A DNA stretch of 25,074 nt from a virus. Its lineage: Duplodnaviria; Heunggongvirae; Uroviricota; Caudoviricetes. A program made the translations under genes and the position numbers. Shown here one piece after another: positions 319 to 24,702 of the stretch (within the stretch, counting starts at the first letter, position 1; every line of letters starts with the position of its first letter). The notes beneath the pieces were generated by a model. It saw only the letters and a list, made by a program, of their open reading frames with translations, did no database searches and had not been told where the DNA came from. The stretch is from IMG/VR virus record IMGVR_UViG_2684622619_000026. One strand, written 5' to 3'.

Positions 319-476
319 GAATATTTTTTGGTAAGCGTCAAACATGCGCGTTCTGGTTGTGCTTAGCCGGAACCTGTGCGAGCACGATGCCGTTACGTGA
401 AAGGCATCGTGCTATGAAGGGAGATTCTATCGATGTGGTCAATGGAAGACGGTTATCAGGGATAGGGCTTATGCAT

Positions 477-503
477 AAAAAATAAGCCCGTGTAAGGGAG
501 ATT
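477..503. other. P2-type 27-bp attachment core (int-proximal prophage-host junction)
   Basis: Sequence AAAAAATAAGCCCGTGTAAGGGAGATT matches the P2 att core as I recall it; lies about 80 bp beyond the 3' end of int, and the DNA on its far side encodes a non-phage lipoprotein rather than ogr. Confidence 0.6.
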
Positions 504-582
504 TAGGGTGTCACCAGTAGGGGCTTTCAACGGTACAATGCGGGTTTGAGCGGCATAAATTACCACTGAAAGCCCTTAAACG

Positions 583-1596
583 TTACTCTACTGTGGACAC
601 TGTGTGGACACTCTCGGCCTCAGTACCACCTCTTAGCGGATTAAGAGAAATGGCGTCCTGAAGGTACTCTGGCGCAAAATGAGCGTAAACCATAGTTTGC
701 TCAATCCGCGTGTGACCTAGTATCCGTTGTAGCGTGATAATACTTCCTCCATTAATCATGAAATGAGTGGCAAAGCTGTGCCTTAGTGCATGTGTGGCTT
801 GCCCCATTGGCAAATCCGGTTTTATTGCTTTCATTGTTCGTCTGAAGCGAGGGTAATCAGCATCAGGGAATAAAAAACCTCGTTTGTTATCCGCGATCAT
901 TTTGGCAACAGCCTCTGAGATCGGGACGGTGCGTGGTTTGTTTGTTTTCGTTTTAACAAACGTGACGCGGTTATGGATGATATTTTCTGCTTTCAAACGA
1001 GCTGCTTCTCCCCAACGTGCTCCTGTACTTAGGCAAAGAATCGCAATCTTTTTATTGTCGCCGTCAAGTGCTGCAAGCAGTAAGGCTATTTCTTCCTGTG
1101 TGAGATAGCCTGTTTCTGGTTTTTCCTCCTTAAGCCTCTTTGTCCCTCTGATAGGATGCTCACCAAAGAATAACTCCGCTTCAATCAGGGCTGTAAACAT
1201 GCCGCTAATACATGTTAAATCACGATTGATACTCGAAGGTTTAATACCCTGACTTCTTCGGGTGGCGCAGTACTGGCTGATAAGGGATTTCGTGATTTGA
1301 AATGCGCATGGGTCATTCGTTATTTTTGTGAAGATTTCAATTTTTCCAAGATTAGATTTCCCATGCTCTTCGTGTTTACCCTTTAAATCCCACCAGATCT
1401 GTGTCAGTTCCGACAGACGTCGTTTGTCTGTTGGTTTTGATAGCCATTCTTTATTGTGGTGGTTGTACAACGTGTATTTTTCGAAAGCGACAGCTTCGCT
1501 TTTCTTATCAAACTTCCTACGGATGCGTTTTCCGTTACGTCCAGTAGGGCGGATGTCCACTTCATATCGACCATCATCGAGTTTTTTGATTGCCAT
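583..1596 (-). CDS. int: tyrosine integrase, P2 Int family
   Basis: 337-aa ORF; C-terminal catalytic signature HALRHSFATHFMINGGSIITLQRILGHTRIEQTMVYAH (R..H-x-x-R..H..Y); N-terminus MAIKKLDDGRYEVDIRP typical of P2/186-type integrases; adjacent to the att core. Confidence 0.95.
   Translation of the reverse strand: MAIKKLDDGRYEVDIRPTGRNGKRIRRKFDKKSEAVAFEKYTLYNHHNKEWLSKPTDKRRLSELTQIWWDLKGKHEEHGKSNLGKIEIFTKITNDPCAFQITKSLISQYCATRRSQGIKPSSINRDLTCISGMFTALIEAELFFGEHPIRGTKRLKEEKPETGYLTQEEIALLLAALDGDNKKIAILCLSTGARWGEAARLKAENIIHNRVTFVKTKTNKPRTVPISEAVAKMIADNKRGFLFPDADYPRFRRTMKAIKPDLPMGQATHALRHSFATHFMINGGSIITLQRILGHTRIEQTMVYAHFAPEYLQDAISLNPLRGGTEAESVHTVSTVE
592..610. repeat. two direct repeats TGTGGACA (592-599 and 603-610), candidate integrase arm-type binding sites
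   Basis: Exact 8-bp direct repeats with 11-bp periodicity inside the last codons of int, about 90 bp from the att core; P2 Int arm sites are, as I recall, direct repeats of this kind. Confidence 0.45.
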
Positions 1597-1711
1597 CAGA
1601 AAACCCTCCGAGTGGTACTTTTTTTTGCTACTACTAATCGCTTTTTTCGTGGTGGCTGAAATTTAGCCACCAATAGTAGGCACTTGTGATGAATATATTC
1701 ACGATAAATTG

Positions 1712-2011
1712 TTAACCAGTCTTTTGACCGGAGTGGGGCGACGTTGTTTCGTTTTGCCCAAAGTGTGCGAGAGCGGGCGCAATTTGCCCGGCTTCTGGAG
1801 CTACCTGATCAGTCATGAACCACAAAGTATATTTAGTAAATCTAGGATGTTGTAAGACCTTCATTATGGCTTCAACTCCAGCGTTTTTTGACCGGCTCTC
1901 ATAGCTCGAAAGTGAGCTGTAGGCTACACCAGTTAATTCACTGAATTCTTTACGGTTTAACCTTTCAGATTCACGGATTAGCTTCAACTTCTCCGAAACG
2001 TCTATTGACAT
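1712..2011 (-). CDS. C: immunity repressor C (HTH, P2 C family)
   Basis: Start moved to the internal ATG at 2011 (GGAG 7 nt upstream), giving 99 aa; HTH region LSRKEFSELTGVAYSSLSSYES; C-terminus QFTKYTLWFMTDQVAPEAGQIAPALAHFGQNETTSPHSGQKTG matches P2 C as I recall it; divergent from cox and upstream of int as in P2. Confidence 0.85.
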   Translation of the reverse strand: MSIDVSEKLKLIRESERLNRKEFSELTGVAYSSLSSYESRSKNAGVEAIMKVLQHPRFTKYTLWFMTDQVAPEAGQIAPALAHFGQNETTSPHSGQKTG

Positions 2012-2132
2012 AATTACTCCGATTGCGTAATTTCTTGCTGATAGTGTGAAATGTTGTGCTTCTGGAGTTATCCTTTTAGGCAATAATTAGCCATTAGGAG
2101 CCATTAGAAGCACTAAGGGAGAATCGTAGCAG
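2012..2132. promoter_or_regulatory. lysogeny/lytic switch region between C and cox (expected Pc/Pe promoters and operators)
   Basis: Intergenic region between divergently coded repressor and cox; contains direct repeats AGCCATTAG at 2089-2097 and 2099-2107 just upstream of the cox RBS; promoter elements not confidently resolved. Confidence 0.45.
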
Positions 2133-2408
2133 ATGAATAGACAGCTTGTAAGCGTGACTGATGCCGTGCCTTATCAGGAGTTTGCAAAACTCATTGGTAA
2201 AACTCCAAGAGCTGTAAGGGGCATGATTGAGAAAGGGAAATTACCAGTTATTGAGATTACTGACCCTCAGTCAGTATCGGGGCGTGCTGGTGAATATTGG
2301 GTATACCTTCCGGCATGGAATAACGGACTAAAACTGGCTTATGAAAGCCGTCCTAAAGAGATTCGTGACGGCTGGTTGATGTGGTTAGGTCTCGGTGAAC
2401 CACGTTAA
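2133..2408 (+). CDS. cox: Cox-like excisionase/transcriptional regulator
   Basis: 91 aa, the size of P2 Cox; motifs PYQEFAKLIGK and AGEYWVYLPAWNNGLKLAYESRPKEIRDGWLMWLGLGEPR match my recollection of P2 Cox; RBS AAGGGAGA upstream; position immediately opposite C. Confidence 0.8.
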   Translation: MNRQLVSVTDAVPYQEFAKLIGKTPRAVRGMIEKGKLPVIEITDPQSVSGRAGEYWVYLPAWNNGLKLAYESRPKEIRDGWLMWLGLGEPR

Positions 2409-2418
2409 GGAGAACCGT

Positions 2419-2589
2419 ATGAATGAGCCTCGTTGTATTGCTCAGTTATTGCGTAACGAAAGCCCCAGGGCGATTGACTTCACCATCACCCACGGTAAGG
2501 GGCGTAAGGGAATCATTATCCGCACCAAAAAACAGAGTCCGTTAAAAAAGGCTCTGACCTTTCTGAAAAGCCGGAGGGTCTGGAAATGA
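2419..2589 (+). CDS. small basic hypothetical protein (P2 orf78-position)
   Basis: Strong SD AAGGAG 7 nt upstream of the ATG at 2419, so this start is preferred over the GTG at 2395 in the ORF track; 56 aa, lysine/arginine rich; stop overlaps the next gene start. Confidence 0.5.
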   Translation: MNEPRCIAQLLRNESPRAIDFTITHGKGRKGIIIRTKKQSPLKKALTFLKSRRVWK

Positions 2590-3086
2590 CAGTGATGACG
2601 CTCAATCTCGTTGAAAAACAGCCAGCAGCTATGCGCCGGATAATTGGCAAGCATCTTGCCGTCCCTCGCTGGCAGGATACATGTGATTATTATAATCAGA
2701 TGATGGAACGCGAACGGCTAACGGTTTGCTTCCATGCGCAGTTAAAACAGCGTCACGCAACGATGCGTTTTGAAGAAATGAACGACGTCGAACGTGAACG
2801 GCTGGTTTGTGCAATTGATGAATTGCGTGGGGCATTCTCAAAACGCCGTCAGGTTGGCGCAAGTGAGTATGCATATATTAGTTTTTTAACAGTCAGTCAG
2901 CGTCGTACTTTATTTATGCATGCCGGATTGACTGAAAAAGAATTCAACCAGCCATACTGGCGAATTAATGAAGAATCATGTTACTGGCGTGATGCTTTAT
3001 TCCGTGCATTACGTGAATTATTCAGCCTGTTTGAGTATGCACCGACAATTCTGACGTCGGTAAAACCAGAGCAATATCTGCATTAA
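2586..3086 (+). CDS. B: replication gene B-like protein
   Basis: 166 aa, the size of P2 B; synteny (cox, small orf, B); GGAGGG upstream of the ATG; identity is by position and size recollection, not a verified alignment. Confidence 0.6.
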   Translation: MTVMTLNLVEKQPAAMRRIIGKHLAVPRWQDTCDYYNQMMERERLTVCFHAQLKQRHATMRFEEMNDVERERLVCAIDELRGAFSKRRQVGASEYAYISFLTVSQRRTLFMHAGLTEKEFNQPYWRINEESCYWRDALFRALRELFSLFEYAPTILTSVKPEQYLH

Positions 3087-3107
3087 ATAATTAACCAGAG
3101 TTTTTAA

Positions 3108-3135
3108 CGCACTTAATCGTGCGGGGCTTCTTTTT
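3108..3135 (+). terminator. weak intrinsic terminator candidate downstream of B
   Basis: Short stem CGCAC/GTGCG (3108-3123) followed by GGCTTCTTTTT; stem is only 5 bp. Confidence 0.25.
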
Positions 3136-3149
3136 GCCTGGAGAAAGTC

Positions 3150-3374
3150 ATGCATACAGTTTCTGAAAACAAGTGCGGTAAATACGCATTACTGCTGCAA
3201 CAGGCCAGAGCCGAAGCACAGGCCGACGCAGCGACACGCTTTTCTTCTCATCTTGACGCCATGATTCGCCATATCACAAAGGCGGAGTTATCCCGCGTGG
3301 AGATAGTCGAGCTGCTCAGTCAGGAGTCGGAAAAATTTCACAATATCGGATTGTCTCGCGGGGAGGTGCTTTGA
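3150..3374 (+). CDS. hypothetical early protein (P2 orf80-position)
   Basis: 74-aa ORF with GGAGAAAG upstream; stop overlaps the next start. Confidence 0.6.
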
Positions 3375-3673
3375 TGTCCTGTTCTCATTCAGTTGTATTA
3401 CTGAATAACGCCTTAAAAATCGCCGTTATGAAAAATGGCGATTTGTCTCTTATTCAACTTTGCCTTGATAAAGAAAAACGCGACATAACTGAATCTGTTA
3501 TCGCGATTTATCAGAATGAATTAAACCTCCTGTCTGATGTGGTCAATTTACTTGTTAAACGCGCTGTATTCCACAAGCAAATTTCCTCAGTGGATGAACT
3601 GACAAAATTAACGACAGAACTTGCCAGTTATTGCGCTGATGTATCCAGGAAACTTAACGATAAAAGGAGCTGA
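3371..3673 (+). CDS. hypothetical early protein (P2 orf81-position)
   Basis: 100-aa ORF, ATGA start/stop overlap with the upstream gene; AAAAGGAG precedes the following gene. Confidence 0.6.
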
Positions 3674-3675
3674 TA

Positions 3676-3900
3676 ATGCCGGACAACGTAGATTTTATTC
3701 AGGAACAACAGGCTGAATTACTGGAGCGCCAGATTAACGCGGCAAGGGTAAAACATTGCGGTGCTTCTGCGCTGGTTTGCGAAGAGTGTGACGCGCCAAT
3801 ACCTGCTGCCCGTCGTGCGGCTTACCCGTCAGCCACGCGTTGTGTTTCCTGTCAGTCAGTCTTTGAAGCAAAAAACAAACGTTACCGGAGAACGGCATGA
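3676..3900 (+). CDS. TraR/DksA-family C4 zinc-finger protein
   Basis: 74 aa; motif CEECDAPIPAARRAAYPSATRCVSCQ (C-x2-C-x17-C-x2-C) closely parallels the TraR zinc finger; AAAAGGAG SD. Confidence 0.8.
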   Translation: MPDNVDFIQEQQAELLERQINAARVKHCGASALVCEECDAPIPAARRAAYPSATRCVSCQSVFEAKNKRYRRTA

Positions 3901-4172
3901 GTATTCGTATTGAAATTGGCGAACGTTATGTCGTTACCAGTGACAGCTTTCAGTTTATTCTCCACGAGAAAAAGAGAGCGGAAAGCGGTAAAAACGCCGG
4001 TCAGGAATGGCTGGCGGTGGTTGGTTATTACCCGAAATTAAGCCAGCTCGTTTCCGGCCTGATGCATCACGATATTCTGACCGGAAGCGCAAAGTCTTTT
4101 GCTGATTTAAACGCGCAGGTTGAGCAACTCAGCAAGCGTTGCTCAGAGGCTTTTGGCTCATATGGCCGTTAA
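3897..4172 (+). CDS. hypothetical early protein (P2 orf83-position)
   Basis: 91-aa ORF, start overlaps the stop of the upstream gene; 3' end overlaps the start of gene A. Confidence 0.55.
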   Translation: MSIRIEIGERYVVTSDSFQFILHEKKRAESGKNAGQEWLAVVGYYPKLSQLVSGLMHHDILTGSAKSFADLNAQVEQLSKRCSEAFGSYGR

Positions 4173-6444
4173 AGCCTCCGGGCGTTTTGTCCCTCCGTCA
4201 GCATTTGCTGCAGGCACCGGTAAGGCGTTTACCGGTGCTTATGCATGGAACGCGCCACGCGAGGCCGTCGGGCGCGAAAGACCCCTTACACGTGACGAGA
4301 TGCGTCAGGTGCAAGGTGTTTTATCCACGATTAACCGCCTGCCTTACTTTTTGCGCTCGCTGTTTACTTCACGCTATGACCACATCCGGCGCAATAAAAG
4401 CCCGGTGCACGGGTTTTATTTCCTCACATCCACTTTTCAGCGTCGTTTATGGCCGCGCATTGAGCGTGTGAATCAGCGCCATGAAATGAACACCGACGCG
4501 TCGTTACTGTTTCTGGCAGAGCGTGACCACTATGCGCGCCTGCCGGGAATGAATGACAAGGAGCTGAAAAAGTTTGCTGCCCGTATCTCATCGCAGCTTT
4601 TCATGATGTATGGGGAACTCAGTGATGCCTGGGTGGATGCGCATGGCGAAAAAGAATCGCTGTTTACGGATGAGGCGCAGGCTCACCTCTATGGTCATGT
4701 TGCTGGCGCTGCACGTGCTTTCAATATTTCCCCTCTCTACTGGAAAATATACCGTAAAGGGCAGATGACCACGAGGCAGGCATATTCTGCCATTGCCCGT
4801 CTGTTTAACGATGAGTGGTGGACTCATCAGCTTAAAGGCCAGCGTATGCGCTGGCATGAAGCGTTACTGATAGCTGTCGGGGAGGTCAATAAAGACCGTT
4901 CTCCTTATGCCAGTAAACACGCCATTCGTGATGTGCGTGCGCGCCGCCAGGCAAATCTGGAATTTCTTAAATCGTGTGACCTTGAAAACAGGGAAACCGG
5001 CGAGCGCATCGACCTTATCAGTAAGGTGATGGGCAGTATTTCTAATCCTGAAATTCGCCGGATGGAGCTGATGAACACCATTGCCGGTATTGAGCGTTAC
5101 GCCGCCGCAGAGGGTGATGTGGGGATGTTTATCACGCTGACCGCGCCGTCAAAGTATCACCCGACACGTCAGGTCAGAAAAGGCGAAAGTAAAACCGTTC
5201 AGCTTAATCACGGCTGGAACGATGAGGCATTTAATCCAAAGGATGCGCAGCGTTATCTCTGCCGCATCTGGAGCCTGATGCGCACGGCATTCAAGGATAA
5301 TGATTTACAGGTCTACGGTTTGCGTGTCGTCGAGCCACACCACGACGGAACGCCGCACTGGCATATGATGCTTTTTTGTAATCCACGCCAGCGTAACCAG
5401 ATTATCGAAATCATGCGTCGCTACGCGCTCAAAGAGGATGGAGACGAAAGAGGAGCTGCGCGAAACCGTTTTCAGGCAAAACACCTTAACCGGGGCGGTG
5501 CTGCGGGATATATCGCGAAATACATTTCAAAAAACATCGACGGCTATGCACTGGATGGTCAGCTCGATAACGATACCGGTAAGCCGCTTAAAGATACTGC
5601 CGCGGCTGTTACCGCATGGGCGTCAACGTGGCGCATTCCGCAATTTAAAACGGTTGGACTGCCGACAATGGGGGCTTACCGTGAACTACGCAAATTGCCT
5701 CGCGGCGTCAGTATTGCTGATGAGTTTGACGAACGCGTCGAGGCTGCTCGCGCTGCCGCAGACAGTGGTGATTTTGCGTTGTATATCAGCGCGCAGGGTG
5801 GGGCAAATGTCCCGCGCGATTGTCAGACTGTCAGGGTCGCCCGTAGCCCGTCGGATGACGTTAACGAGTACGAGGAAGAAGTCGAGAGAGTGGTCGGCAT
5901 TTACGCGCCGCATCTCGGCGCGCGTCATATTCATATCACCAGAACGACGGACTGGCGCATTGTGCCGAAAGTTCCGGTCGTTGAGCCTTTGACTTTAAAA
6001 AGCGGCATCGCCGCGCCTCGGAGTCCTGTCAATAACTGTGGAAAACTCACCGGTGGTGATACTTCGTTACCGGCTCCCACACCGACTGAGCATGCTGCAG
6101 CGGTGTTAAATTTAATAGATGAAGGGATTCTAAGTTGGACCGAGCCAGGCATTATGAAGGTACTTAGAGACTTATTGAGTAATGAACTGAAATGCAGTAA
6201 TCGTTCACAGCAGAGCTTTACCCCTTTCAATGGTCGAAGCTACTTTCCTGCCCCATCCGCCCGGTTGACAAGGCAGGAGAGAAAGACTATCCCGAAAATT
6301 AAGGTTCTTCTTGCACAAAGTGACATTCAGGCTAGTTATTGGGAGCTTGAAGCTCTCGCTCGCGGAGCTGTTTTGGATTTTGGGCATAAGCGTTTTAAAT
6401 TTGATAACGATATCGACTTTTTTGACAGACAGCGTGAGTGGTAG
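4162..6444 (+). CDS. A: rolling-circle replication initiator endonuclease A (HUH family)
   Basis: Start taken at the internal Met (MAVKASGRFVPP) rather than the ORF-track start at 4120; HUH-type motif HHDGTPHWHMMLF and tyrosine motif GYIAKYISKNIDGY; about 760 aa as for P2 gpA. Confidence 0.9.
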   Translation: MAVKASGRFVPPSAFAAGTGKAFTGAYAWNAPREAVGRERPLTRDEMRQVQGVLSTINRLPYFLRSLFTSRYDHIRRNKSPVHGFYFLTSTFQRRLWPRIERVNQRHEMNTDASLLFLAERDHYARLPGMNDKELKKFAARISSQLFMMYGELSDAWVDAHGEKESLFTDEAQAHLYGHVAGAARAFNISPLYWKIYRKGQMTTRQAYSAIARLFNDEWWTHQLKGQRMRWHEALLIAVGEVNKDRSPYASKHAIRDVRARRQANLEFLKSCDLENRETGERIDLISKVMGSISNPEIRRMELMNTIAGIERYAAAEGDVGMFITLTAPSKYHPTRQVRKGESKTVQLNHGWNDEAFNPKDAQRYLCRIWSLMRTAFKDNDLQVYGLRVVEPHHDGTPHWHMMLFCNPRQRNQIIEIMRRYALKEDGDERGAARNRFQAKHLNRGGAAGYIAKYISKNIDGYALDGQLDNDTGKPLKDTAAAVTAWASTWRIPQFKTVGLPTMGAYRELRKLPRGVSIADEFDERVEAARAAADSGDFALYISAQGGANVPRDCQTVRVARSPSDDVNEYEEEVERVVGIYAPHLGARHIHITRTTDWRIVPKVPVVEPLTLKSGIAAPRSPVNNCGKLTGGDTSLPAPTPTEHAAAVLNLIDEGILSWTEPGIMKVLRDLLSNELKCSNRSQQSFTPFNGRSYFPAPSARLTRQERKTIPKIKVLLAQSDIQASYWELEALARGAVLDFGHKRFKFDNDIDFFDRQREW

Positions 6445-6533
6445 TTGAAAAAAACGGTCAAACGGGGTAACAATATGTTATTGTTGAGGAATTGTTTGTT
6501 ATAGTTTAATTTTTATACACGGCAGAAAAGCAT
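6445..6533 (+). promoter_or_regulatory. AT-rich leader of the cargo operon with candidate promoter and a short dyad
   Basis: Sharp drop in GC right after the A stop codon; TTGTTT/TTGTTA and TATACA-like hexamers; imperfect dyad AACAATA-TGT-TATTGTT near 6466-6482. Not verified. Confidence 0.3.
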
Positions 6534-7757
6534 ATGAGCATGGTTGAATGGATAAGCCACGAGAAAAAAGATAGCCTGATACTATTTGTACATGGATTAA
6601 ATGGTGGTTTGGAAACATGGAACTTTAATAAAGAAACTTCATTTCCAAAACTATTAGCAGAAGATGAAGACATTGGCAATGTATTTGATATTGCATGTTT
6701 CAATTATTTCACCAAATTTACACAAACGTATGCTAAAACGTCAGGATTATGGGCTCGTATTTTCTCTAAGAAAAATAAGTTAGAGAGAAATTTACCAACT
6801 GATGAAATAGCTGAGTTATTGTATACTGAGATTAGGGTAACGCTAAGTGATTACTCTCGAATTATAATAATCGCCCATAGTATGGGGGGGGTAATATCAA
6901 AAAATCTAATTCTAAAAAAAGTTGAGCATGAGGAACAATCTAATATAATTGGATTCATTTCGTTAGCAGTCCCTCACTTTGGTGCTAAATTGGCGAATAT
7001 AACTTCAATGGTATCTTCAAATGCTCAGTTAGTAGATCTTGGATTGTTAAGTGAAGCGACCGATACGTTGAATAGGCGCTGGATAAATTGTAGCAAAAAA
7101 CTTCCTATCACTAGATATGTTTATGGTTCTCATGACACTATAGTTGATAAAAAAAGCGCATTACCGATGGATAGTGAACGAAATAACTCAATTGCAGTTA
7201 ATGAAGGGCATAGCTCAATTTGCAAGCCCGAAAACAGCTCGTCTACAGTGTTTGTTGCGGTAAAGCAATTTATTCAGCAGATAAATTTAGAAGCACCCAA
7301 GAAGATATGTGTTGAGCGTTTTTCTGATGAGAAACAATATGATAATGAGTATTTCGTCTTAAAAATGATTGTCGCAGATATACATCAGGATATCGCTATG
7401 CATGCAAAGGAATATTATTATAATGCTGAGCTTGCGAGAAATATTTTTACGAGTGATTACGATAGGAAACTACTTGGTCATTTGTATTCTAAAATAAGGG
7501 AGATTTACCAGGAAGAGTATGAGCAATATATCGCGAATTCAATTTCCCCAGATAAATTTATTGCTGCTGTTCATAGACGAATAGCCCAAGAGGATAAGTC
7601 GTCGTTAGATTCTCTTATAAAAAGTTTAGAAACGATACATAAGAAAGGAATGTTGCATCAACTGGCTAACAAAAATGACAGGGATATTGTCTGGTCATCT
7701 GAAACCAGCGTAGAAACTTTGGAGCAATTACGGCGAGGTAATCATGAAGAAAAATAA
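6534..7757 (+). CDS. alpha/beta-hydrolase (serine esterase/lipase-like) effector candidate with C-terminal helical domain; first gene of cargo cassette
   Basis: 407 aa; LILFVHGLNGG (oxyanion-hole-like HG) and nucleophile elbow IIIAHSMGGV (G-x-S-x-G) in the N-terminal ~230 aa; candidate Asp (GSHDTIVD) and His (NEGHSSI); C-terminal ~170 aa charged and helical; about 33% GC versus >50% for the backbone. Confidence 0.7.
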   Translation: MSMVEWISHEKKDSLILFVHGLNGGLETWNFNKETSFPKLLAEDEDIGNVFDIACFNYFTKFTQTYAKTSGLWARIFSKKNKLERNLPTDEIAELLYTEIRVTLSDYSRIIIIAHSMGGVISKNLILKKVEHEEQSNIIGFISLAVPHFGAKLANITSMVSSNAQLVDLGLLSEATDTLNRRWINCSKKLPITRYVYGSHDTIVDKKSALPMDSERNNSIAVNEGHSSICKPENSSSTVFVAVKQFIQQINLEAPKKICVERFSDEKQYDNEYFVLKMIVADIHQDIAMHAKEYYYNAELARNIFTSDYDRKLLGHLYSKIREIYQEEYEQYIANSISPDKFIAAVHRRIAQEDKSSLDSLIKSLETIHKKGMLHQLANKNDRDIVWSSETSVETLEQLRRGNHEEK

Positions 7758-8256
7758 CTTGCCGTATATTCCTCTTGATGAAGAGTATAGCTTGAATTTT
7801 GCTATGCTTGCCATTGCTATATCTATATTATCTCATAGCAAAAAAGGAGTGTTATCATTAGATATTAATAAAATACAAATTTTTATGTATCTGATAAAAA
7901 ACCCATCAAAAATTGATTATGCTCTTACAGTTTCGGGGAAAAAGCCTGCTTGTGTCGAGTCCCAGTTAACTTATACAATAAAGAGTTTTTCAACAAATGT
8001 AGATATCTTATTCGACAATTCCAAAGTGAAATATCTTATAAAAATTATGTCATTGCGGGGATTGCTCTCAGCTGAGAAAAAAAATAATGAGAGTGTTAAA
8101 TTATTTTTATCTGAAAAAGGTAAGGAATTTGCTAGCTCATTGACTGATGGATATTTTAAAGAAATAAAACGACTATCCGAAGCATTGTTACCGCTACAAG
8201 CATTGCCTACCTCTAAGTTAAACTCTGTTATAAATCAAGTCTTCAAGGAGAAATGA
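7744..8256 (+). CDS. small protein, middle gene of cargo cassette (putative adaptor)
   Basis: 170 aa; GAGG SD 5 nt upstream; start overlaps the upstream stop by 14 nt and its stop overlaps the downstream start (ATGA); no recognisable catalytic motif; AT-rich. Confidence 0.65.
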   Translation: MKKNNLPYIPLDEEYSLNFAMLAIAISILSHSKKGVLSLDINKIQIFMYLIKNPSKIDYALTVSGKKPACVESQLTYTIKSFSTNVDILFDNSKVKYLIKIMSLRGLLSAEKKNNESVKLFLSEKGKEFASSLTDGYFKEIKRLSEALLPLQALPTSKLNSVINQVFKEK

Positions 8257-10223
8257 TGAAATCATATCTCAATATCAATAGTTTGATTCTTGTTGGCGTT
8301 CGTAAAAACTACGTCACTACTTTTTATAAAGGTCTCAATGTTATCTACGGAGACTCTGACACAGGTAAGTCAAGCATTCTGGAGTTTATTAATTATCTTT
8401 TAGGTGCTAGCTCTATAGATTTAGCAGATGAAATAAAAACATCAGTAAACTATGCTGCTCTTGAAGTAGTGATCAATGATACTGTATTCACAATCGTAAG
8501 AGATATCTATGATCATAAAAAAGCAATAGAAGTTTATCGTTGTAAGTTTGATGATTTACATAAACATTTTCCGAAAAAATACGCTCCTAATTATAGCCCA
8601 TTATCAAATGTTGATGGTGTTTTTTCGGAGTTTTTACTTGATAGTCTTAATTTTCCAAAGATTGAAATTAAGGTGTCTCCTTCTAAAGCTCATTCACAGA
8701 TGCGCAGGTTAAGTTTTAGAAATATATATAAATTTGTTTATGTAAGTCAGGATGATATTGGTAGTAAATCTTTCTTGCGATTGGGTGATTGGTCCCGCTA
8801 CGCATTTACGAAAGAAGTTTTTAAATACATGTTCAATGTGTTGGATGAAAGCATCGCCAGACTCCAAGGTGAAATATCTGCAAAAAGTAGTTTAGTAACG
8901 GAATTAAATAGGAAGTATCAGATAATATCTGAATTTCTTCGCGATACAGACTATGAAACGATTGAATCAATTGATGATGAGATTAATAGGATAGATCTTG
9001 TTTTAGAAGAACTTGTTGCAGGTTTGTCTGCTCTCGATAAAAATATGAAAGCGGATTCCATACAGTATACAGAATTGAAAGATGCTCACAATTTTATTTC
9101 GCTTAAATACAAAGAGTGCATATTAAATATTACTGCGCTTGAGGATAAGATTGATAAATATTCGCGGTTAAAAAATGACTATGATAATGATATTGAAAAA
9201 CTCAAAGCGATTAAAACAGCAAATTCTCGCATTGGTGTATTGGATAAGGAAGTATTTTCCTGTCCAGTCTGTGATAGCCACATTAAAATAGATGATTCTG
9301 ATTTTCCATTTGAAATTTCATCAGAAAAAGATCTTAATGAAGAGTTGAATTCACTTAGTCGACGTAGACGAAATATTAATGACATGATCTCAGAAATGTC
9401 ATTTAAATTAAAAAAAGAATCAGGTTATAAAAAGGAATTAGATGAACGACTTGACGAGTTGAGAGAATTGATTGACGAAGAAAGCCAGTCAATGATTACA
9501 CCATTCTTGACTCAGAGAGATTTTTATATTAAAGAGATCTCAAAAAATGAGAAGGTTAGGGAGCAGTTAGTAAAAGATTTGAAGGTTAGAAACCAGCAAG
9601 AGGAACTGCTTGAAAAGTATCAGGTACTGAGAAAAGATATTGAAGCATTAACTGAACGCTTGGAGGCGTTAAAGAAAAACGCACCTAGCATGGAGGGCAT
9701 TTTACAAGGTTTGGGTGATAGATTTAGTCAGTATTTGAAGGGTATTAATATCAAAAACAGAACGGGGATAAAAATCTCTGAAAGCTATTACATTCCTGTT
9801 ATAAGAGAAAAAGAATATTTTAAAATAACATCCGGAGGTTTGAGAACTATTTCTTCTATTGGGTATCTTTTGTCTATTCTTGATTATGCAATAGATCATA
9901 ATGTTAACCATCCTTTACTTTTGATATTTGATACGGTTGGCAAATATTTAGGGAAACAGACCAAGGAAAAATATTCAAAAGAAACTCTTGCATTCGAGGA
10001 TGACCTTGAGGGAATGTCAGATCCGATGAAGTATCAAAATATTTATGAACAACTATTGAATACAGTTCAAAAAGCAGAAAGAAAAAATGTTCCGTGCCAG
10101 ATTATATTAGTTGATAATGATTTGCCTAATTCGTTTTCTACTGGTGAACTTTCGAATATTATCGCTCATTATAGCTCGGTTGGTGAGGACGGTTTGCCTT
10201 TAGGTTTAATTGATGACCTTTAA
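8253..10223 (+). CDS. SMC/Rad50-like ABC ATPase with central CxxC motif; third gene of cargo cassette
   Basis: 656 aa; N-terminal Walker A GDSDTGKSS; long heptad-like charged middle region; CPVC near residue 337 (mid-protein); C-terminal TSGG signature-like motif followed by hydrophobic-D LLLIFDT (Walker B-like) and ILVDND. Start may be the ATG at 8256 (better spacing from AAGGAG). Confidence 0.75.
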   Translation: MMKSYLNINSLILVGVRKNYVTTFYKGLNVIYGDSDTGKSSILEFINYLLGASSIDLADEIKTSVNYAALEVVINDTVFTIVRDIYDHKKAIEVYRCKFDDLHKHFPKKYAPNYSPLSNVDGVFSEFLLDSLNFPKIEIKVSPSKAHSQMRRLSFRNIYKFVYVSQDDIGSKSFLRLGDWSRYAFTKEVFKYMFNVLDESIARLQGEISAKSSLVTELNRKYQIISEFLRDTDYETIESIDDEINRIDLVLEELVAGLSALDKNMKADSIQYTELKDAHNFISLKYKECILNITALEDKIDKYSRLKNDYDNDIEKLKAIKTANSRIGVLDKEVFSCPVCDSHIKIDDSDFPFEISSEKDLNEELNSLSRRRRNINDMISEMSFKLKKESGYKKELDERLDELRELIDEESQSMITPFLTQRDFYIKEISKNEKVREQLVKDLKVRNQQEELLEKYQVLRKDIEALTERLEALKKNAPSMEGILQGLGDRFSQYLKGINIKNRTGIKISESYYIPVIREKEYFKITSGGLRTISSIGYLLSILDYAIDHNVNHPLLLIFDTVGKYLGKQTKEKYSKETLAFEDDLEGMSDPMKYQNIYEQLLNTVQKAERKNVPCQIILVDNDLPNSFSTGELSNIIAHYSSVGEDGLPLGLIDDL

Positions 10224-10352
10224 TACTATACATGCATTTTTTTGAATTAGATTGCATGTGGATAATGAGTCTATTTAGTGAAGGGAGGGATTTGTGAGAC
10301 GAGACTTTCGATAAAAATGCAACCGCATTAAAATCGCCACATGAAGCGGGCG

Positions 10353-10371
10353 GGCGAGGCGGGGAAAGCAC
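10353..10371. other. cos: cos site (19-nt cohesive-end sequence of P2/186-type phages)
   Basis: GGCGAGGCGGGGAAAGCAC matches the P2 cohesive-end sequence as I recall it; located between the cargo locus and portal gene Q, where P2 cos lies. Confidence 0.55.
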
Positions 10372-10512
10372 TGCGCGCTGGCGGTGGTGCTGATTTTATT
10401 TTTTCAGCGTCTGAGCGCGTCGTGATGGCGCTTAGTCTGCCCGTTGAGGCGTTGGTGTGTCTGCGGGGTGTTTTGTGCGGTGGTGAGCGTGTGAGGGCGT
10501 GATGACGGGGTG

Positions 10513-10536
10513 TAAAAAAGCCGCCCGCAGGCGGCG
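10513..10536 (-). terminator. rho-independent terminator of the P-Q operon
   Basis: GC stem GCCGCC-CGCA-GGCGGC (10520-10535) directly downstream of the Q stop; on the minus strand it is followed by a TTTTTT run. Confidence 0.6.
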
Positions 10537-10540
10537 ATGT

Positions 10541-11575
10541 TCAGCCGTTGTCAGTGTCCAGTGAGTAGTTTTTAAAGCGGATGACCTCCTGACCGAGCCA
10601 GCCGTTTATCTCGCGGATCCTGTCCTGTAGCGGGATAAGCTCATTGCGGACAAAGACCTTTGCCACTTTCTCAATATCACCCAGCGACCCGACGTTCTCC
10701 GGCTTGCCGCCCATCAACTGAAAGGGGATGCGGTGCGCGTCCAGCAGGTCAGCGGCGCTGGCTTTTTTGATATTAAAAAAATCGTCCTTCGTTGCCACTT
10801 CACTGAGCGGGATAATTTTAATGCCGTCGGCTTTCCCCTGCGGGGCATAGAGAAACAGATTTTTAAAGTTGTTGCGGCCTTTCGACTTGACCATGTTTTC
10901 GCGAAGCATTTCGATATCGTTGCGATCCTGCACGGCATCGGTGACGTACATGATATATCCGGCATGAGCGCCGTTTTCGTAATACTTGCGGCGGAACAGC
11001 GTGGCCGACTCATTCAGCCAGGCAGAATTAAGGGCGCTGAGATATTCCGGCAGGCCGTACAGCTCCTGATTAATATCCGGCTCCAGCAGGTGAAACACGG
11101 AGCCGGGCGCGAAGGCTGTCGGCTCGTTGAAGGACGGCACCCACCAGTAAACATCCTCCTCCACGCCACGGCGGGTATATTTTGCCGGTGAGGTTTCCAG
11201 TCTGATGACCTTACCGGTGGTGCTGTAACGCTTTTCCAGAAACGCATTACCGAACACCAGAAAATCCAGCACAAAGCGGCTGAAATCCTGCTGGGAAAGC
11301 CACGGGTGCGGAATAAACGTTGAAGCCAGAATATTACGTTTGACGTAAATCGGTGAGCTGTGATGTACGGCAGCACGCAGGCTTTTTGCCAGACCGGTAA
11401 AGCTGACCGGTGGCTCATACCATCTGCCGTTACTGATGCACTCGACGTAATCCAGAATGTCACGGCGGTCGAGTACCGGCACCGGTTCACCAAAGGTGAA
11501 TGCCTCCATTTTCGGGGCGCTGGCGGTCATTTTTTTTGCCGCAGGTTGCGGTGTTTTCCCTTTTTTCTTGCTCAT
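10541..11575 (-). CDS. Q: portal protein Q
   Basis: 344 aa; N-terminus MSKKKGKTPQPAAKKMTASAPKMEAFTFGEPVPVLDRRDILDYVECISNGRWYEPP recognised as P2 gpQ-like; ATGA overlap with the upstream P gene. Confidence 0.9.
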   Translation of the reverse strand: MSKKKGKTPQPAAKKMTASAPKMEAFTFGEPVPVLDRRDILDYVECISNGRWYEPPVSFTGLAKSLRAAVHHSSPIYVKRNILASTFIPHPWLSQQDFSRFVLDFLVFGNAFLEKRYSTTGKVIRLETSPAKYTRRGVEEDVYWWVPSFNEPTAFAPGSVFHLLEPDINQELYGLPEYLSALNSAWLNESATLFRRKYYENGAHAGYIMYVTDAVQDRNDIEMLRENMVKSKGRNNFKNLFLYAPQGKADGIKIIPLSEVATKDDFFNIKKASAADLLDAHRIPFQLMGGKPENVGSLGDIEKVAKVFVRNELIPLQDRIREINGWLGQEVIRFKNYSLDTDNG

Positions 11576-13347
11576 CAGTAAAACTCCAGAATGGTGGATG
11601 TCAGCGGGGTGCTGATACCGGCGGTGAGTGGCTCATTTAACAGGGCGTGCATGGTCGCCCAGGCGAGGTCGGCGTGGCTGGCTTCCTCGCTGCGGCTGGC
11701 CTCATAGGTGGCGCTGCGTCCGCTGCTGGTCATGGTCTTGCGGATAGCCATAAACGAGCTGGTGATGTCGGTGGCGCTGACGTCATATTCCAGACAGCCA
11801 CGGCGAATAACGTCTTTTGCCTTGAGCACCATTGCGGTTTTCATTTCCGGCGTGTAGCGGATATCGCGTGCGGCGGGATAGAACGAGCGAACGAGCAGGA
11901 ACACGCCGACACCGAGGCCGGTGGCATCAATTCCGATGTATTCGACGTTGTATTTTTCGGTGAGTTTGCGGATGGATTCAGCCTGGGTGGCAAAGTCCAT
12001 GCCTTTCCACTGGTGACGCTCAAGTATTCTGAATTTGCCACCGGCCACCACCGGCGGTGCCAGCACCACGCATCCGGCACTGTCGCCACGGTGTGACGGG
12101 TCGTAACCAATCCAGACCGGGCGGGAGCCGAACGGATTCGCGGCAAACGGCGCATAGTCTTCCCATTCTTCCAGCGTGTCGACCATGCAGCGTTGCAGCT
12201 CCTCGAACGGGAACACCGACGCCTTGTCGTCAACAAATTCACACATGAACAGGTTTTTAAAATCGTCGGCGCTGTTTTCGCGTTTAAGCTGCTCAATGTC
12301 GAACAGCGTGCAGCCACCTTTCAGGGCGTCCTCAATGGTGACAATCTGCCGCCACTGACCGTCCGCACAGAGAAGCCCACCGGCAAGAGCGTTATGACTG
12401 ACGTCGATTTCCACGCGTTCGGCGGCGCTGGCGCGTCCCCGGTTGAACAGTTCACCCGACCAGAACGGGTAGGCGTCGTGCGCCAGCGTGGACGGGGTGG
12501 AGAAATAGGTCGAGCGCAGGTGACTCTGTGAGGCCATACCTGATGCCACCTTACGCAGTACCTGAAAATTCGGTATCCAGAAAATCTCGTCGACGTACAG
12601 GTCGCCGTTATGGCTCTGCGCGGTGTTGGAGTTGGTGCCGAGAAAAATCAGTTTTGCGCTGTTATTGCCCAGGACAATCGGGTCACCGGTCAGGTCAACG
12701 TCAACCAGCCGGGCAAAGGCGATGATGTATTCGCGGAACACATACGCCTGCGTTTTACTGGCCGACAGAAAAATCTGGTTATGACCGGTTTTCAGGGCGC
12801 GCAGCAGCGCCTCGCGGGAAAAATAAAACGTCGCGCCAATCTGGCGGGATTTCAGGATATCGCGGATGCGGTGCTCAAGCCCGGCGCGATACCAGTGCAA
12901 CTGATATTCGAAAGACTGCTCAAAGAAAATCTGCTCCAGCTTTTCGATAGCCTCGTCACTGAAAAAATTCTTTTTCGGTTTGCGCCGCCCGCCTTTGTTG
13001 CGGTTAGCGATGTTCGGATTAAGGTCTGCCTCGTTGCCGGTCTGGCTGTAGCGGTTTACCCGTGCCAGTCGTTCAATCTGGCGTCCGAGCAGGTCAATTT
13101 CCTTGAAGTCACCGCCGGTTTTCTGCGGTTTGATGATGAGCTGGGTCAGCCGCGCTTCCAGACTCATTTCGACACGGCTGATGGGGGCAACGCTGTCCCA
13201 GCCGTCGCGCTGTTTCCAGCTCTGCACCGTCGGGCGTTTCATCTGCAACATGGCGGCAATCTGCGGCACGGAAAATCCCTGCCAGTACAGCAGCGCCGCC
13301 TGACGACGCGGGTCGTGTAAAAGAGTGGTGTCTGTGGTGATGGTCAT
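11575..13347 (-). CDS. P: terminase large (ATPase) subunit P
   Basis: Start taken at MTITTDTTLL (GAGG 6 nt upstream), giving 590 aa; size and position next to Q as in P2; the ORF-track start at 13377 lacks an RBS. Confidence 0.9.
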   Translation of the reverse strand: MTITTDTTLLHDPRRQAALLYWQGFSVPQIAAMLQMKRPTVQSWKQRDGWDSVAPISRVEMSLEARLTQLIIKPQKTGGDFKEIDLLGRQIERLARVNRYSQTGNEADLNPNIANRNKGGRRKPKKNFFSDEAIEKLEQIFFEQSFEYQLHWYRAGLEHRIRDILKSRQIGATFYFSREALLRALKTGHNQIFLSASKTQAYVFREYIIAFARLVDVDLTGDPIVLGNNSAKLIFLGTNSNTAQSHNGDLYVDEIFWIPNFQVLRKVASGMASQSHLRSTYFSTPSTLAHDAYPFWSGELFNRGRASAAERVEIDVSHNALAGGLLCADGQWRQIVTIEDALKGGCTLFDIEQLKRENSADDFKNLFMCEFVDDKASVFPFEELQRCMVDTLEEWEDYAPFAANPFGSRPVWIGYDPSHRGDSAGCVVLAPPVVAGGKFRILERHQWKGMDFATQAESIRKLTEKYNVEYIGIDATGLGVGVFLLVRSFYPAARDIRYTPEMKTAMVLKAKDVIRRGCLEYDVSATDITSSFMAIRKTMTSSGRSATYEASRSEEASHADLAWATMHALLNEPLTAGISTPLTSTILEFY

Positions 13348-13520
13348 GAATACCTCGCCGTGATGAATACACGGCAAGGCTACTGAGTCGCGCCCCGCGA
13401 TTCGCTAAGGTGCTGTTGTGTCAGTGATAAGCCATCCGGGACTGATGGCGGAGGATGCGCATCGTCGGGAAACTGATGCCGACATGTGACTCTTCTAATC
13501 ACTATTCAGGACTCCTGACA
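13348..13520. promoter_or_regulatory. divergent late-promoter region between P and O
   Basis: Intergenic region between divergently transcribed P-Q and O-N-M-L operons; by P2 analogy it carries the activator-dependent late promoters; contains dyad GCCGTG-N7-CACGGC at 13357-13375; exact promoter elements not resolved. Confidence 0.4.
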
Positions 13521-24682: not shown

Positions 24683-24702
24683 ATAAATCACCCTAAATAA
24701 AA

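What the first reader, a model, noticed from the sequence alone, without database searches (positions are those of the whole stretch)
6445..10352. Sharp compositional island exactly at the known P2 cargo hotspot
GC drops from over 50% in gene A and the structural genes to about 30-35% across 6445-10352 and returns to GC-rich sequence at the cos region. The boundaries coincide with the A stop codon and the cos-proximal region, the position where P2-like phages are known to exchange anti-phage cargo (tin/old in P2). This supports the cassette being horizontally swapped accessory cargo rather than core phage functions.
Basis: partly seen in the sequence, partly recalled or inferred. Interest (0 to 1): 0.5.

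Follow-up and report, generated by a model that had tools for sequence, protein, structure and literature searches.

The report
Lamassu defence cassette in P2 hotspot
The AT-rich block between the replication gene and the packaging site of this P2-like E. coli O157:H7 prophage is a swapped-in three-gene Lamassu anti-phage system with a lipase-type killing domain, sitting in the slot where P2-like phages are already known to exchange defence genes, so it is real but ordinary.

Summary
GC falls from 0.53 (gene A) and 0.56-0.57 (Q, P, late genes) to 0.33 over about 3.9 kb. GC3 is 0.28-0.30 against 0.63-0.71. The best three-segment fit puts the low-GC block at 6371-10334.

The island encodes an intact, translationally coupled lmuA-lmuC-lmuB operon. 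This is a short, type II Lamassu (ABC-3C) system of the lipase-CTD8-MC4 kind.

The window is the P2-like prophage next to yegR of E. coli O157:H7 (100% identical to TW14359). The cassette is in 96 of 5426 complete E. coli genomes, while about 2171 carry a P2-like cos-Q segment. None of 116 related phage records has it. Nine near-identical P2-like phages each hold different, also AT-rich, cargo in the same slot.

The left homology breakpoint lies inside A (about 6095-6122, some 75-100 nt past the ori nick), not at the A stop. The right one is about 30 nt left of cos.

The same cassette lineage sits in this slot in P2-like prophages of Citrobacter, Scandinavium, Rouxiella and Serratia. Both the hotspot and the system type are published. 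Interest is low.

The parts
4162..6444 (+). Gene A (replication endonuclease), chimeric: residues 1-646 are P2-type, the last 114 residues are a different allele.
   Evidence: Pfam Phage_GPA 8e-122. RefSeq start taken from TW14359. Residues 1-646 are 98% identical to P2 A. The tail is 44% identical to P2 but 68% to the Scandinavium prophage.
6010..6030 (+). P2 ori nick region (GCGCCTC/GGAGTCC), inside a block that is 100% conserved across 9 P2-like phages.
   Evidence: The nick site annotated in NC_001895 (L006:3893) was mapped through alignment A1. Identity per 25-nt bin is 0.96-1.00 over 5975-6050.
6095..6122 (.). Left homology breakpoint of the exchanged module.
   Evidence: Identity to the E. 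coli-type P2-like phages is 95-98% up to ~6090 and ~48% over 6100-6444. Megablast matches to the nine comparators end at 6109-6122.
6100..6444 (+). Variant 3' end of A (GC 0.44), in complete linkage with the cassette in E. coli.
   Evidence: It is found in exactly 96 E. coli genomes, the same number as the cassette, and lies adjacent to it in every record compared. The same five IMG/VR contigs carry both.
6445..6533 (+). A-lmuA spacer, holding a promoter-like site (TTGAAA-18-AACAAT, 6445-6474) and a perfect palindrome AACAATA-TGT-TATTGTT (6469-6485).
   Evidence: The promoter-like count is not above shuffle expectation, so this is only a candidate.
6534..7757 (+). lmuA: N-terminal alpha/beta-hydrolase (lipase/esterase-type) effector plus C-terminal ABC-3C CTD8.
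   Evidence: Pfam CTD8 1.7e-35, DUF676 4e-9, PGAP1 4e-7. PADLOC LmuA 3.5e-108. S116, D201, H226 and the HSMGG elbow are invariant in 39 homologs. In the AF2 model the N-domain has pLDDT 85-95. Foldseek hits to esterases and monoacylglycerol lipases have E ~1e-7.
7744..8256 (+). lmuC: ABC-3C middle component 4. It overlaps lmuA by 14 nt.
   Evidence: Pfam MC4 5e-27. PADLOC LmuC 1.5e-52.
8253..10223 (+). lmuB: short SMC/Rad50-like ATPase with a zinc hook. Its ATGA start overlaps the lmuC stop.
   Evidence: PADLOC LmuB 1.5e-235. Invariant in 24 homologs: Walker A G33-x4-GKS40, Q166, C337-P-x-C340, TSGGLRT 526-532 and Walker B D560-T561.
10224..10321 (.). Non-coding 3' spacer of the cargo. It contains a TGCA-rich motif (~10236-10259) that is semi-conserved left of cos in all P2-like phages compared.
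   Evidence: Alignment A2.
10316..10322 (.). Right homology breakpoint.
   Evidence: Megablast matches to the comparators start at 10316-10319. Alignment A2.
10353..10371 (+). P2 cos cohesive-end sequence GGCGAGGCGGGGAAAGCAC.
   Evidence: Read directly. It matches cosR of NC_001895.
10541..11575 (-). Gene Q (portal), the conserved right flank.
   Evidence: Pfam Phage_portal. 97-100% identical to E. coli P2-like phages.

Best explanation
The island is accessory cargo in the gpA-cos/Q hotspot of a P2-like prophage. It is an intact lmuA-lmuC-lmuB operon encoding a short type II Lamassu (ABC-3C) defence system of the lipase-CTD8-MC4 kind.

How it got there (inferred from the junctions): it was exchanged between P2-like phages by homologous recombination. 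One crossover lay just 3' of the invariant ori block inside A. The other lay just left of cos. The donor's 3' end of A came in with the cassette.

How it works (inferred from studied Lamassu systems, not shown here): a LmuB dimer with LmuC holds one LmuA in an inactive, sequestered state. The complex recognises DNA ends or replication intermediates of an invading phage. ATP-dependent rearrangement of the LmuB heads releases LmuA, which oligomerises through its CTD8. The Ser116-Asp201-His226 hydrolase then becomes active, most probably degrades membrane lipid esters, and kills the infected cell before the phage completes its cycle (abortive infection). This protects the lysogen population and with it the prophage.

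The low GC reflects foreign origin and is typical of cargo in this slot. It may also allow H-NS-type silencing of a toxic system.
For: - Composition and coordinates.
- Family assignment: full-length PADLOC matches LmuA 3.5e-108, LmuC 1.5e-52, LmuB 1.5e-235; Pfam CTD8, MC4, DUF676/PGAP1.
- Motifs: catalytic triad invariant in 39 homologs; LmuB Walker A, Q-loop, CPxC hook, signature motif and D-T Walker B invariant in 24 homologs. The D-T Walker B matches the published short-Lamassu consensus hhhhD[Q/S/T/E] (PMC12663957).
- Fold: confident hydrolase core, nearest to esterases, monoacylglycerol lipases and a phospholipase A.
- Operon: overlapping stop/start codons.
- Experimental precedent: an E. 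coli 'Lamassu Ec-Lipase' (short, lipase effector, Zn hook) protects against Lambda-vir and needs the Walker A lysine and the lipase histidine (PMC12663957). The sequester-release-oligomerise model is set out. Lipase LmuAs are assigned to CTD8/CTD9 (10.1101/2025.03.14.643221).
- Cargo status: absent from 116 related phage records; nine different cargos between 96-98% identical flanks; 96 of 5426 E. coli genomes have the cassette against 2171 with P2-like cos-Q. The hotspot is published (PMC13586616; Millman preprint).
- Exchange route: sharp identity drop at 6095-6122 and recovery at 10316-10322; chimeric gpA; no flanking repeats. The same cassette sits in the same slot of divergent P2-like prophages in four other genera. 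In Citrobacter the cassette is 91-92% identical while the backbone is only 78-86%.
Against: - No experiment here shows expression, anti-phage activity or a lipid substrate.
- The sequence of the tested Ec-Lipase system is not available to me. Its residue numbers (K42, H215) differ from this system's (K39, H226), so it is probably a different homolog.
- No sequence-level match exists to the solved Cap4-type Lamassu structures.
- The CTD8 part of the model is low confidence.
- No convincing promoter or terminator was found for the operon.
- The cassette lies on the same strand directly after the C-repressed early operon, so expression in the lysogen is unproven.
- The copy in E. coli B REL606 carries a frameshift in lmuC, so the system can be lost without obvious cost.
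- How oligomerisation would activate a lipase is unknown in the field.
Confidence: 0.82

Rival explanations
1. The cassette is present but functionally silent or decaying in this lysogen: a relic, or fully silenced AT-rich DNA that does not contribute to defence.
For: It is AT-rich (GC 0.33). A 2026 preprint, of which I could read only the title and abstract snippet, reports that H-NS silences AT-rich immunity loci in model E. coli and mentions Lamassu and P2-like elements. No clear promoter was found. REL606 carries a frameshifted lmuC in a degraded prophage.
Against: All three ORFs are intact with coupled starts. At least 84 genomes hold the cassette at >=99% identity. The catalytic and ATPase motifs are intact. 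PMC13586616 reports that defence pseudogenes are rare at these hotspots. Silencing and function are not mutually exclusive.
Confidence: 0.12
2. The system's main target is not lytic phages but plasmids, satellites or competing temperate elements, as for the Vibrio cholerae DdmABC Lamassu.
For: DdmABC, a type II Lamassu, acts on both plasmids and phages. Lamassu senses DNA ends and foreign replication origins rather than phage proteins.
Against: The closest tested analogue by architecture (Ec-Lipase) protects against phage Lambda-vir. Nothing in the sequence discriminates between targets.
Confidence: 0.1
3. The island is an independently mobile element (transposon, integrative cassette) that inserted at this site, rather than a segment exchanged by homologous recombination.
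For: The compositional boundaries are sharp.
Against: There is no transposase or integrase gene in the island and no terminal direct or inverted repeats. The left junction lies inside a homologous but divergent A allele that is closest to the A tail of the Scandinavium P2-like prophage, which carries the same cassette. The cassette was found in E. coli only next to that A allele. PMC13586616 notes that transposable elements are almost absent from these hotspots.
Confidence: 0.03
4. The hydrolase is a lysogenic-conversion or virulence factor (for example an exported lipase of O157:H7) and the ATPase genes serve another role.
For: The same slot carries a toxin (cdtABC) in another P2-like phage. 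LmuA has a lipase/esterase fold.
Against: The hydrolase is fused to the ABC-3C CTD8 docking domain and is always followed by MC4 and LmuB in every context examined. By eye the N terminus (MSMVEWISHEKKD...) has no signal-peptide-like hydrophobic stretch; this was not formally tested.
Confidence: 0.02
5. The low GC arose in place by mutation bias or chance, not by horizontal acquisition.
For: None found.
Against: The three-segment fit gains 217 ln-likelihood units. GC3 is 0.28-0.30 against 0.63-0.71 in neighbouring genes. The block is absent from near-identical phages. Homologous cassettes are also low-GC islands in Scandinavium and in a ~0.68-GC Pseudomonas genome.
Confidence: 0.01

Closest known systems
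Lamassu Ec-Lipase (short Lamassu, clade H) of E. coli, Haudiquet et al. PNAS 2025 (PMC12663957)
   Same: Three genes, a lipase-type LmuA effector, a short LmuB with a single CxxC zinc hook, and an E. coli host. Defence there depends on the Walker A lysine and the lipase catalytic histidine, and both residues are present and invariant here (K39, H226).
   Different: E. coli also carries a second variant with LmuB ~52% identical to this one (P0160). The tested system's genomic context is not stated in the text I could read.
Vibrio cholerae DdmABC / Lamassu Vc-Cap4 (PDB 9NY5, 9NYG) and Salmonella LmuACB (Cap4-CTD7-MC3)
   Same: Gene order A-C-B, a short LmuB with a deviant Walker B, and the sequester-release-oligomerise logic that I take as the working model.
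   Different: The effector there is a Cap4 nuclease acting on DNA, and the CTD7/MC3 modules differ. Vc LmuB lacks the zinc hook. phmmer finds no similarity to any PDB chain.
P2 tin/old and the other cargos of the P2 gpA-gpQ defence hotspot (Rousset 2022 as cited; PMC13586616)
   Same: Same slot, same flanks (A/ori and cos/Q), same AT-rich composition (cargo GC 0.33-0.42 in nine comparators), and accessory status.
   Different: The gene content is different. Here the operon is co-oriented with A, whereas tin and old are transcribed towards A from their own promoter.
CBASS CapV and other phospholipase effectors of abortive-infection systems (from general knowledge, not tested here)
   Same: A lipid-hydrolase killing module held inactive until infection is sensed.
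   Different: CapV is a patatin-like enzyme activated by a cyclic nucleotide. Here the enzyme is an alpha/beta-hydrolase presumed to be activated by release from an SMC-like sensor. Its substrate is unknown.

Membership tests
Lamassu / ABC-3C (short, type II) | LmuB: SMC/Rad50-like ABC ATPase with Walker A Gx4GK[S/T] | tested here: met
   PADLOC LmuB PDLC03862 1.5e-235 over the full length. G33-D-S-D-T-G-K39-S40 is invariant in 24 homologs.
Lamassu / ABC-3C (short, type II) | Short-Lamassu Walker B hhhhD[Q/S/T/E] (definition from PMC12663957) | tested here: met
   LLIFD560-T561, with D and T invariant.
Lamassu / ABC-3C (short, type II) | ABC signature motif and Q-loop split by a coiled coil that carries a CxxC zinc hook (zero, one or two copies in short LmuB) | tested here: met
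   Q166, TSGGLRT 526-532 and one C337-P-V-C340 are all invariant. The coiled coil itself was not modelled.
Lamassu / ABC-3C (short, type II) | LmuC middle component encoded between lmuA and lmuB | tested here: met
   Pfam MC4 PF20290 5e-27 and PADLOC LmuC 1.5e-52. The gene lies at 7744-8256 and overlaps both neighbours.
Lamassu / ABC-3C (short, type II) | LmuA: variable N-terminal effector fused to an ABC-3C C-terminal domain | tested here: met
   CTD8 PF20284 1.7e-35 at residues 265-389 and DUF676/PGAP1 at residues 10-208. PADLOC LmuA 3.5e-108. All 120 listed homologs share the architecture.
Lamassu / ABC-3C (short, type II) | LmuA1:LmuB2:LmuC1 complex that senses DNA ends and releases LmuA | not testable with these tools
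   This needs biochemistry or multimer modelling.
Lamassu / ABC-3C (short, type II) | Confers phage resistance by abortive infection | not testable with these tools
   Shown for other family members, not for this cassette.
alpha/beta-hydrolase, DUF676/PGAP1-like lipase/esterase | Nucleophile elbow (G/A)xSxG with a Ser-Asp-His triad in canonical order, and an HG oxyanion motif | tested here: met
   A114-H-S116-M-G118, D201 and H226 are invariant, and H20-G21 is nearly invariant, in 39 sequences down to 39% identity.
alpha/beta-hydrolase, DUF676/PGAP1-like lipase/esterase | alpha/beta-hydrolase fold | tested here: met
   The AF2 core has pLDDT 85-95. Foldseek finds 707 PDB hits at E<=1e-3. The top hits are carboxylesterases, monoacylglycerol lipases, thioesterases and phospholipase PlaF.
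alpha/beta-hydrolase, DUF676/PGAP1-like lipase/esterase | Lipid ester substrate | not testable with these tools
   The fold matches are generic (9-15% identity), so the substrate cannot be inferred.
Cargo of the P2-like gpA-gpQ/cos defence hotspot | Located between gpA and cos/gpQ of a P2-like element | tested here: met
   Phage_GPA 4162-6444, cos 10353-10371, portal 10541-11575.
Cargo of the P2-like gpA-gpQ/cos defence hotspot | Content varies between elements with near-identical core genes | tested here: met
   Nine comparators carry nine different cargos between flanks 96-98% identical. The cassette is in 96 genomes against 2171 with cos-Q.
Transposon / integrative cassette | Own recombinase and terminal repeats or target duplication | tested here: not met
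   No such gene is present and no flanking repeats were found.

The most novel reading that the evidence does not exclude
This lipase-CTD8-MC4 Lamassu lineage is not a freely roaming 'gun for hire'. It is a long-term resident of P2-like phages across Enterobacterales, passed only between such phages by crossovers anchored on their two invariant cis sites (ori inside A, and cos). The dispensable C-terminal tail of gpA forms part of the exchange zone. If so, the P2 ori-cos interval is a natural, recombination-defined cassette holder whose breakpoints can be predicted. The system may also be tuned to coexist with P2's own rolling-circle replication, which itself produces nicked and ended DNA.
Probability: 0.25. 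Interest if true: 0.4.

Novelty: already known. Interest (0 to 1): 0.2.

Why it matters
It gives a clean worked example of the published P2 defence hotspot: an intact Lamassu-lipase system carried by the yegR-site P2-like prophage of E. coli O157:H7. This includes the spinach-outbreak strain TW14359 and 95 other complete genomes. That could influence the phage susceptibility of these strains and so phage-based detection or biocontrol.

Two details may help people working on hotspot dynamics. The exchange breakpoints sit just past the ori nick inside gene A and about 30 nt left of cos. The laboratory strain E. coli B REL606 carries the same cassette with a frameshifted lmuC.

What a Lamassu lipase effector hydrolyses, and how oligomerisation activates it, is still open in the field. 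This naturally occurring E. coli system is a convenient substrate for that question, but the finding itself adds no new principle.

Tried and rejected
- **PDB sequence search.** phmmer searches with LmuA, LmuC and LmuB found nothing, so no direct structural homolog could be named by sequence.
- **Identifying the tested Ec-Lipase system.** I could not identify it. No supplement is held, no strain or accession appears in either version of the text, and the residue numbers do not match this system or the second E. coli variant P0160.
- **H-NS preprint.** The preprint 10.64898/2026.09.05.749240 could not be opened. Only its title and abstract snippet are used.
- **gpA tail as a Lamassu partner.** I considered that the variant gpA C-terminal tail is a functional partner of Lamassu, because linkage in E. 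coli and IMG/VR is complete. I rejected this. Lamassu-bearing P2-like prophages of Citrobacter, Rouxiella and Serratia have different or truncated tails, and pro483 has its own truncated tail with unrelated cargo.
- **Missing catalytic glutamate in LmuB.** I considered that the missing Walker B glutamate is an anomaly. I rejected this because it is the published short-Lamassu consensus.
- **Promoter and terminator scan.** It gave no signal above shuffled controls.
- **Extra 65 bases versus TW14359.** The apparent extra ~65 bases in tail-fibre gene H are a run of 50 N, not biology.
- **Sandbox files.** Early Python runs failed to see loci L002-L010. They turned out to be stored inside L001.fa.

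Full report
**1. The observation**

A 500-nt sliding window shows GC of 0.51-0.55 across gene A (3751-6250). It falls to 0.31-0.37 from 6251 to 10250 and returns to 0.53-0.62 from 10251 onward. A 100-nt profile shows the fall between about 6350 and 6450 and the rise between 10250 and 10350.

Segment values:

| Segment | GC |
|---|---|
| Quoted island 6445-10352 | 0.333 |
| First 1.9 kb of A | 0.534 |
| Q+P | 0.557 |
| Late genes | 0.573 |

A maximum-likelihood three-segment fit over 4120-13377 places the low-GC block at 6371-10334. The left edge is supported at 6295-6398 and the right edge at 10282-10346. The fit gains 217 ln-likelihood units over one segment.

Third-codon-position GC is 0.30, 0.29 and 0.28 for the three island genes.

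The quoted end, 10352, is the base before GGCGAGGCGGGGAAAGCAC at 10353-10371. That sequence is the cohesive end annotated as cosR in phage P2, NC_001895.

**2. Where the window comes from**

Window positions 1-23121 are 100% identical to the chromosome of E. coli O157:H7 TW14359. Positions 1-318 are the host gene yegR. They are followed by a P2-type integrase, repressor, cox, B, the small early ORFs, A, the island, then Q, P, O, N, M, L and the lysis and tail genes.

**3. What the island encodes**

There are three ORFs on the + strand: 6534-7757 (407 aa), 7744-8256 (170 aa) and 8253-10223 (656 aa). Their stop and start codons overlap, which indicates one translationally coupled operon.

- **ORF1 (lmuA).** It has an N-terminal alpha/beta-hydrolase region (DUF676 4e-9, PGAP1 4e-7). 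Its C-terminal domain is "C-terminal domain 8 of ABC-three component systems" (1.7e-35).
- **ORF2 (lmuC).** It is "ABC-3C middle component 4" (5e-27).
- **PADLOC models.** All three match full-length Lamassu models: LmuA 3.5e-108, LmuC 1.5e-52, LmuB 1.5e-235.
- **RefSeq.** It already annotates them as an ABC-three component system protein, middle component 4 and an AAA family ATPase.

In an alignment of 39 LmuA homologs down to 39% identity, H115-S116-M-G-G, D201 and H226 are invariant. The H20-G21 oxyanion motif is nearly invariant.

An AlphaFold2 model built on that alignment gives a confident hydrolase core (pLDDT 85-95). The CTD is low confidence (35-64). Foldseek places the model among carboxylesterases, monoacylglycerol lipases, thioesterases and the membrane phospholipase PlaF at E about 1e-7. 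This is a generic lipase/esterase fold that does not fix the substrate.

In 24 LmuB homologs the following are invariant:

- Walker A, G33-x4-G-K39-S40
- Q166
- a single C337-P-x-C340 zinc-hook motif
- the signature motif TSGGLRT, 526-532
- a Walker B with D560 followed by T561

The missing glutamate is not an anomaly. Haudiquet et al. give hhhhD[Q/S/T/E] as the Walker B consensus of "short" Lamassu. They describe zero, one or two zinc hooks in that group (PMC12663957).

A second preprint assigns lipase-type LmuAs to the CTD8 and CTD9 families (10.1101/2025.03.14.643221). In that scheme this system is a Lamassu lipase-CTD8-MC4.

**4. Is it swapped cargo?**

*Phage records.* A megablast of 5000-11600 against 50,697 phage records finds 116 related records. 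None of them covers the island. tblastn with LmuB finds no relative at all in that collection.

Nine comparators were inspected. Their flanks are 96-98% identical to the window, and each carries something different between A and cos:

| Phage | Cargo |
|---|---|
| P2 | orf91-tin-old |
| pro483 | DUF4238 |
| "P2" of strain T22 | cdtABC |
| pro147 | a reverse transcriptase and retron Ec48 |
| PhiR44_1 | Dcm + ParaMORC3 |
| STYP1 | VbhT/Fic |
| 569R9 | DUF4209 |
| phage 899 | an exoribonuclease plus a hypothetical protein |
| YpM50 | DUF3850 plus a hypothetical protein |

All nine cargos are AT-rich (GC 0.33-0.42, against 0.53-0.54 in the flanks). The composition seen here is therefore the rule for this slot.

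*E. coli genomes.* Among 5426 complete genomes the island is present once each in 96, always chromosomal. 84 of them are at >=99% identity. In contrast, 2171 genomes match the cos-Q flank, 1532 of them over >=80% of it, at 3125 places.

*Literature.* It already names the gpA-gpQ interval as the main P2 defence hotspot and describes very rapid swapping there (PMC13586616). It also notes that Lamassu family members occur in prophage hotspots (Millman et al. preprint).

**5. The junctions**

*Right side.* Homology to the other P2-like phages resumes at 10316-10322, about 30 nt left of the cos cleavage site.

*Left side.* The window is 95-98% identical to the others up to about 6090. This stretch includes a block at 5975-6050 that is essentially invariant. 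The block contains the P2 ori nick site, mapped from the NC_001895 annotation to about 6019/6020.

From 6100 to the A stop, identity drops to about 48%. Megablast matches end at 6109-6122.

*Protein level.* gpA residues 1-646 are 98% identical to P2 A. The last 114 residues are 44% identical to P2 A. They are 68% identical to the gpA tail of a P2-like prophage of Scandinavium hiltneri, which carries the same cassette.

The variant tail occurs in exactly 96 E. coli genomes, adjacent to the cassette wherever checked. It also occurs in the same five IMG/VR contigs as LmuB.

No direct or inverted repeats flank the block, and it encodes no recombinase.

I infer exchange between P2-like phages by homologous recombination. 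One crossover fell just past ori and the other just left of cos.

The exchanged segment is about 6100-10320 and includes the 3' end of A.

**6. Is the gpA tail specific to Lamassu?**

No. Lamassu-lipase cassettes occupy the same slot in P2-like prophages of several genera:

| Host | LmuA identity to the window |
|---|---|
| Citrobacter | 92% |
| Scandinavium | 86% |
| Pantoea (degraded remnant) | 78% |
| Rouxiella | 72% |
| Serratia | 63% |

Their gpA tails differ from the window's or are truncated. pro483 also has its own truncated tail with unrelated cargo. The tail is therefore a plastic, apparently dispensable part of the hotspot, linked to the cassette only physically.

The same comparison shows that the cassette is more similar than the backbone in Citrobacter (91-92% against 78-86%). 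The two are roughly level in Rouxiella. The cassette is less similar than Q and P in Serratia.

The window's own backbone is 98-100% P2-type, so its cassette came from a divergent P2-like lineage.

In Pseudomonas entomophila a 49% relative is again a low-GC island (about 0.40 in a ~0.68 genome) in a non-P2 context.

**7. Mechanism**

*Shown here:* the domain architecture, intact catalytic and ATPase motifs, operon structure, location and exchange history.

*Inferred from studied relatives:* LmuB2-LmuC holds a single LmuA in a sequestered state through its CTD. The complex recognises DNA ends or phage replication origins. ATP-dependent head rearrangement releases LmuA, which oligomerises through the CTD and becomes active.

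For a lipase effector, the most likely outcome is hydrolysis of membrane lipid esters and death of the infected cell.

An E. coli Lamassu with a lipase effector and a zinc hook has been shown to protect against Lambda-vir. It requires the Walker A lysine and the lipase histidine, and it is toxic when overexpressed unless the histidine is mutated.

How oligomerisation activates a lipase is explicitly unresolved. I could not establish how close the tested system is to this one.

*Expression.* Expression in the lysogen is unproven. The operon follows the repressed early operon on the same strand. The only promoter-like site (6445-6474) is not better than chance.

**8. Comparison and verdict**

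The system passes every sequence-testable defining feature of short type II Lamassu and of an alpha/beta-hydrolase. It fails those of a transposon.

Both the hotspot and the system kind are published, and the genes are already annotated as ABC-3C in RefSeq. The finding is a correct reading of an already known phenomenon.

The small additions are the breakpoints relative to ori and cos, the recurrence of this Lamassu lineage in P2-like prophages of five genera, and the frameshifted copy in E. coli B.

Noticed in passing
L014 (E. coli B REL606, NC_012967 2103578-2125485), lmuC at L014:10299-10813; corresponds to window ~7892: E. coli B REL606 and derivatives carry the same prophage at yegR with the same cassette at 97.2% identity. 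There the prophage is degraded (Q truncated, head genes missing). Its lmuC has a 2-bp TG insertion that splits it into two annotated CDS, so the Lamassu of this laboratory lineage is probably inactive.
   Followed up: partly
window 23123-23172: A run of 50 N inside tail-fibre gene H, flanked by a duplicated TTGGTTTGGGAGAAG. This is an assembly gap or mask. It makes H appear split into two ORFs (22281-23252 and 23177-23665).
   Followed up: yes
window 6469-6485: A perfect palindrome AACAATA-TGT-TATTGTT in the 89-nt A-lmuA spacer, overlapping a promoter-like site (6445-6474). It could be an operator or a small hairpin. The spacer is 83% identical in the Scandinavium prophage.
   Followed up: no
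window ~10236-10259 and 10318-10335; alignment A2: TGCA-rich motifs (consensus about TGCAT-N8-9-TTGCATG, and TGCAACYGCATTAAAA next to cos) recur left of cos in all P2-like phages compared, whatever the cargo. They may be part of the packaging recognition region, so the truly free cargo space ends about 100 nt before cos.
   Followed up: no
L004 (phage pro147) 4142-4204 and 4522-6416: In pro147 a cos-like sequence lies between two cargo modules. The retron Ec48 genes sit between that cos copy and Q, so cargo can lie on the Q side of cos as well.
   Followed up: no
window 1-4119: The integrase and early region have intermediate GC (0.42-0.48), lower than A and the late genes (0.53-0.62). The prophage is therefore compositionally mosaic beyond the island.
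   Followed up: no
window 22281-25074; L001 33156-35228: The tail-fibre end of the window has lower GC (~0.48). In the TW14359 annotation it is followed by oppositely oriented tail-fibre assembly and gp53-like genes and a recombinase. This looks like an invertible host-range segment, a second variable locus of the prophage.
   Followed up: no
L012 (Pseudomonas entomophila) 10433-12798: Downstream of the 49%-identical Lamassu cassette, two further minus-strand ORFs lie in the same low-GC block (GC 0.40-0.43 in a ~0.68 genome). This suggests a larger defence island there.
   Followed up: no
P0160 and P0100/P0025: E. coli and Klebsiella carry a second, common Lamassu-lipase variant about 52-55% identical to this one (clusters of 736 and 476 member sequences). 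Its genomic context was not examined.
   Followed up: no
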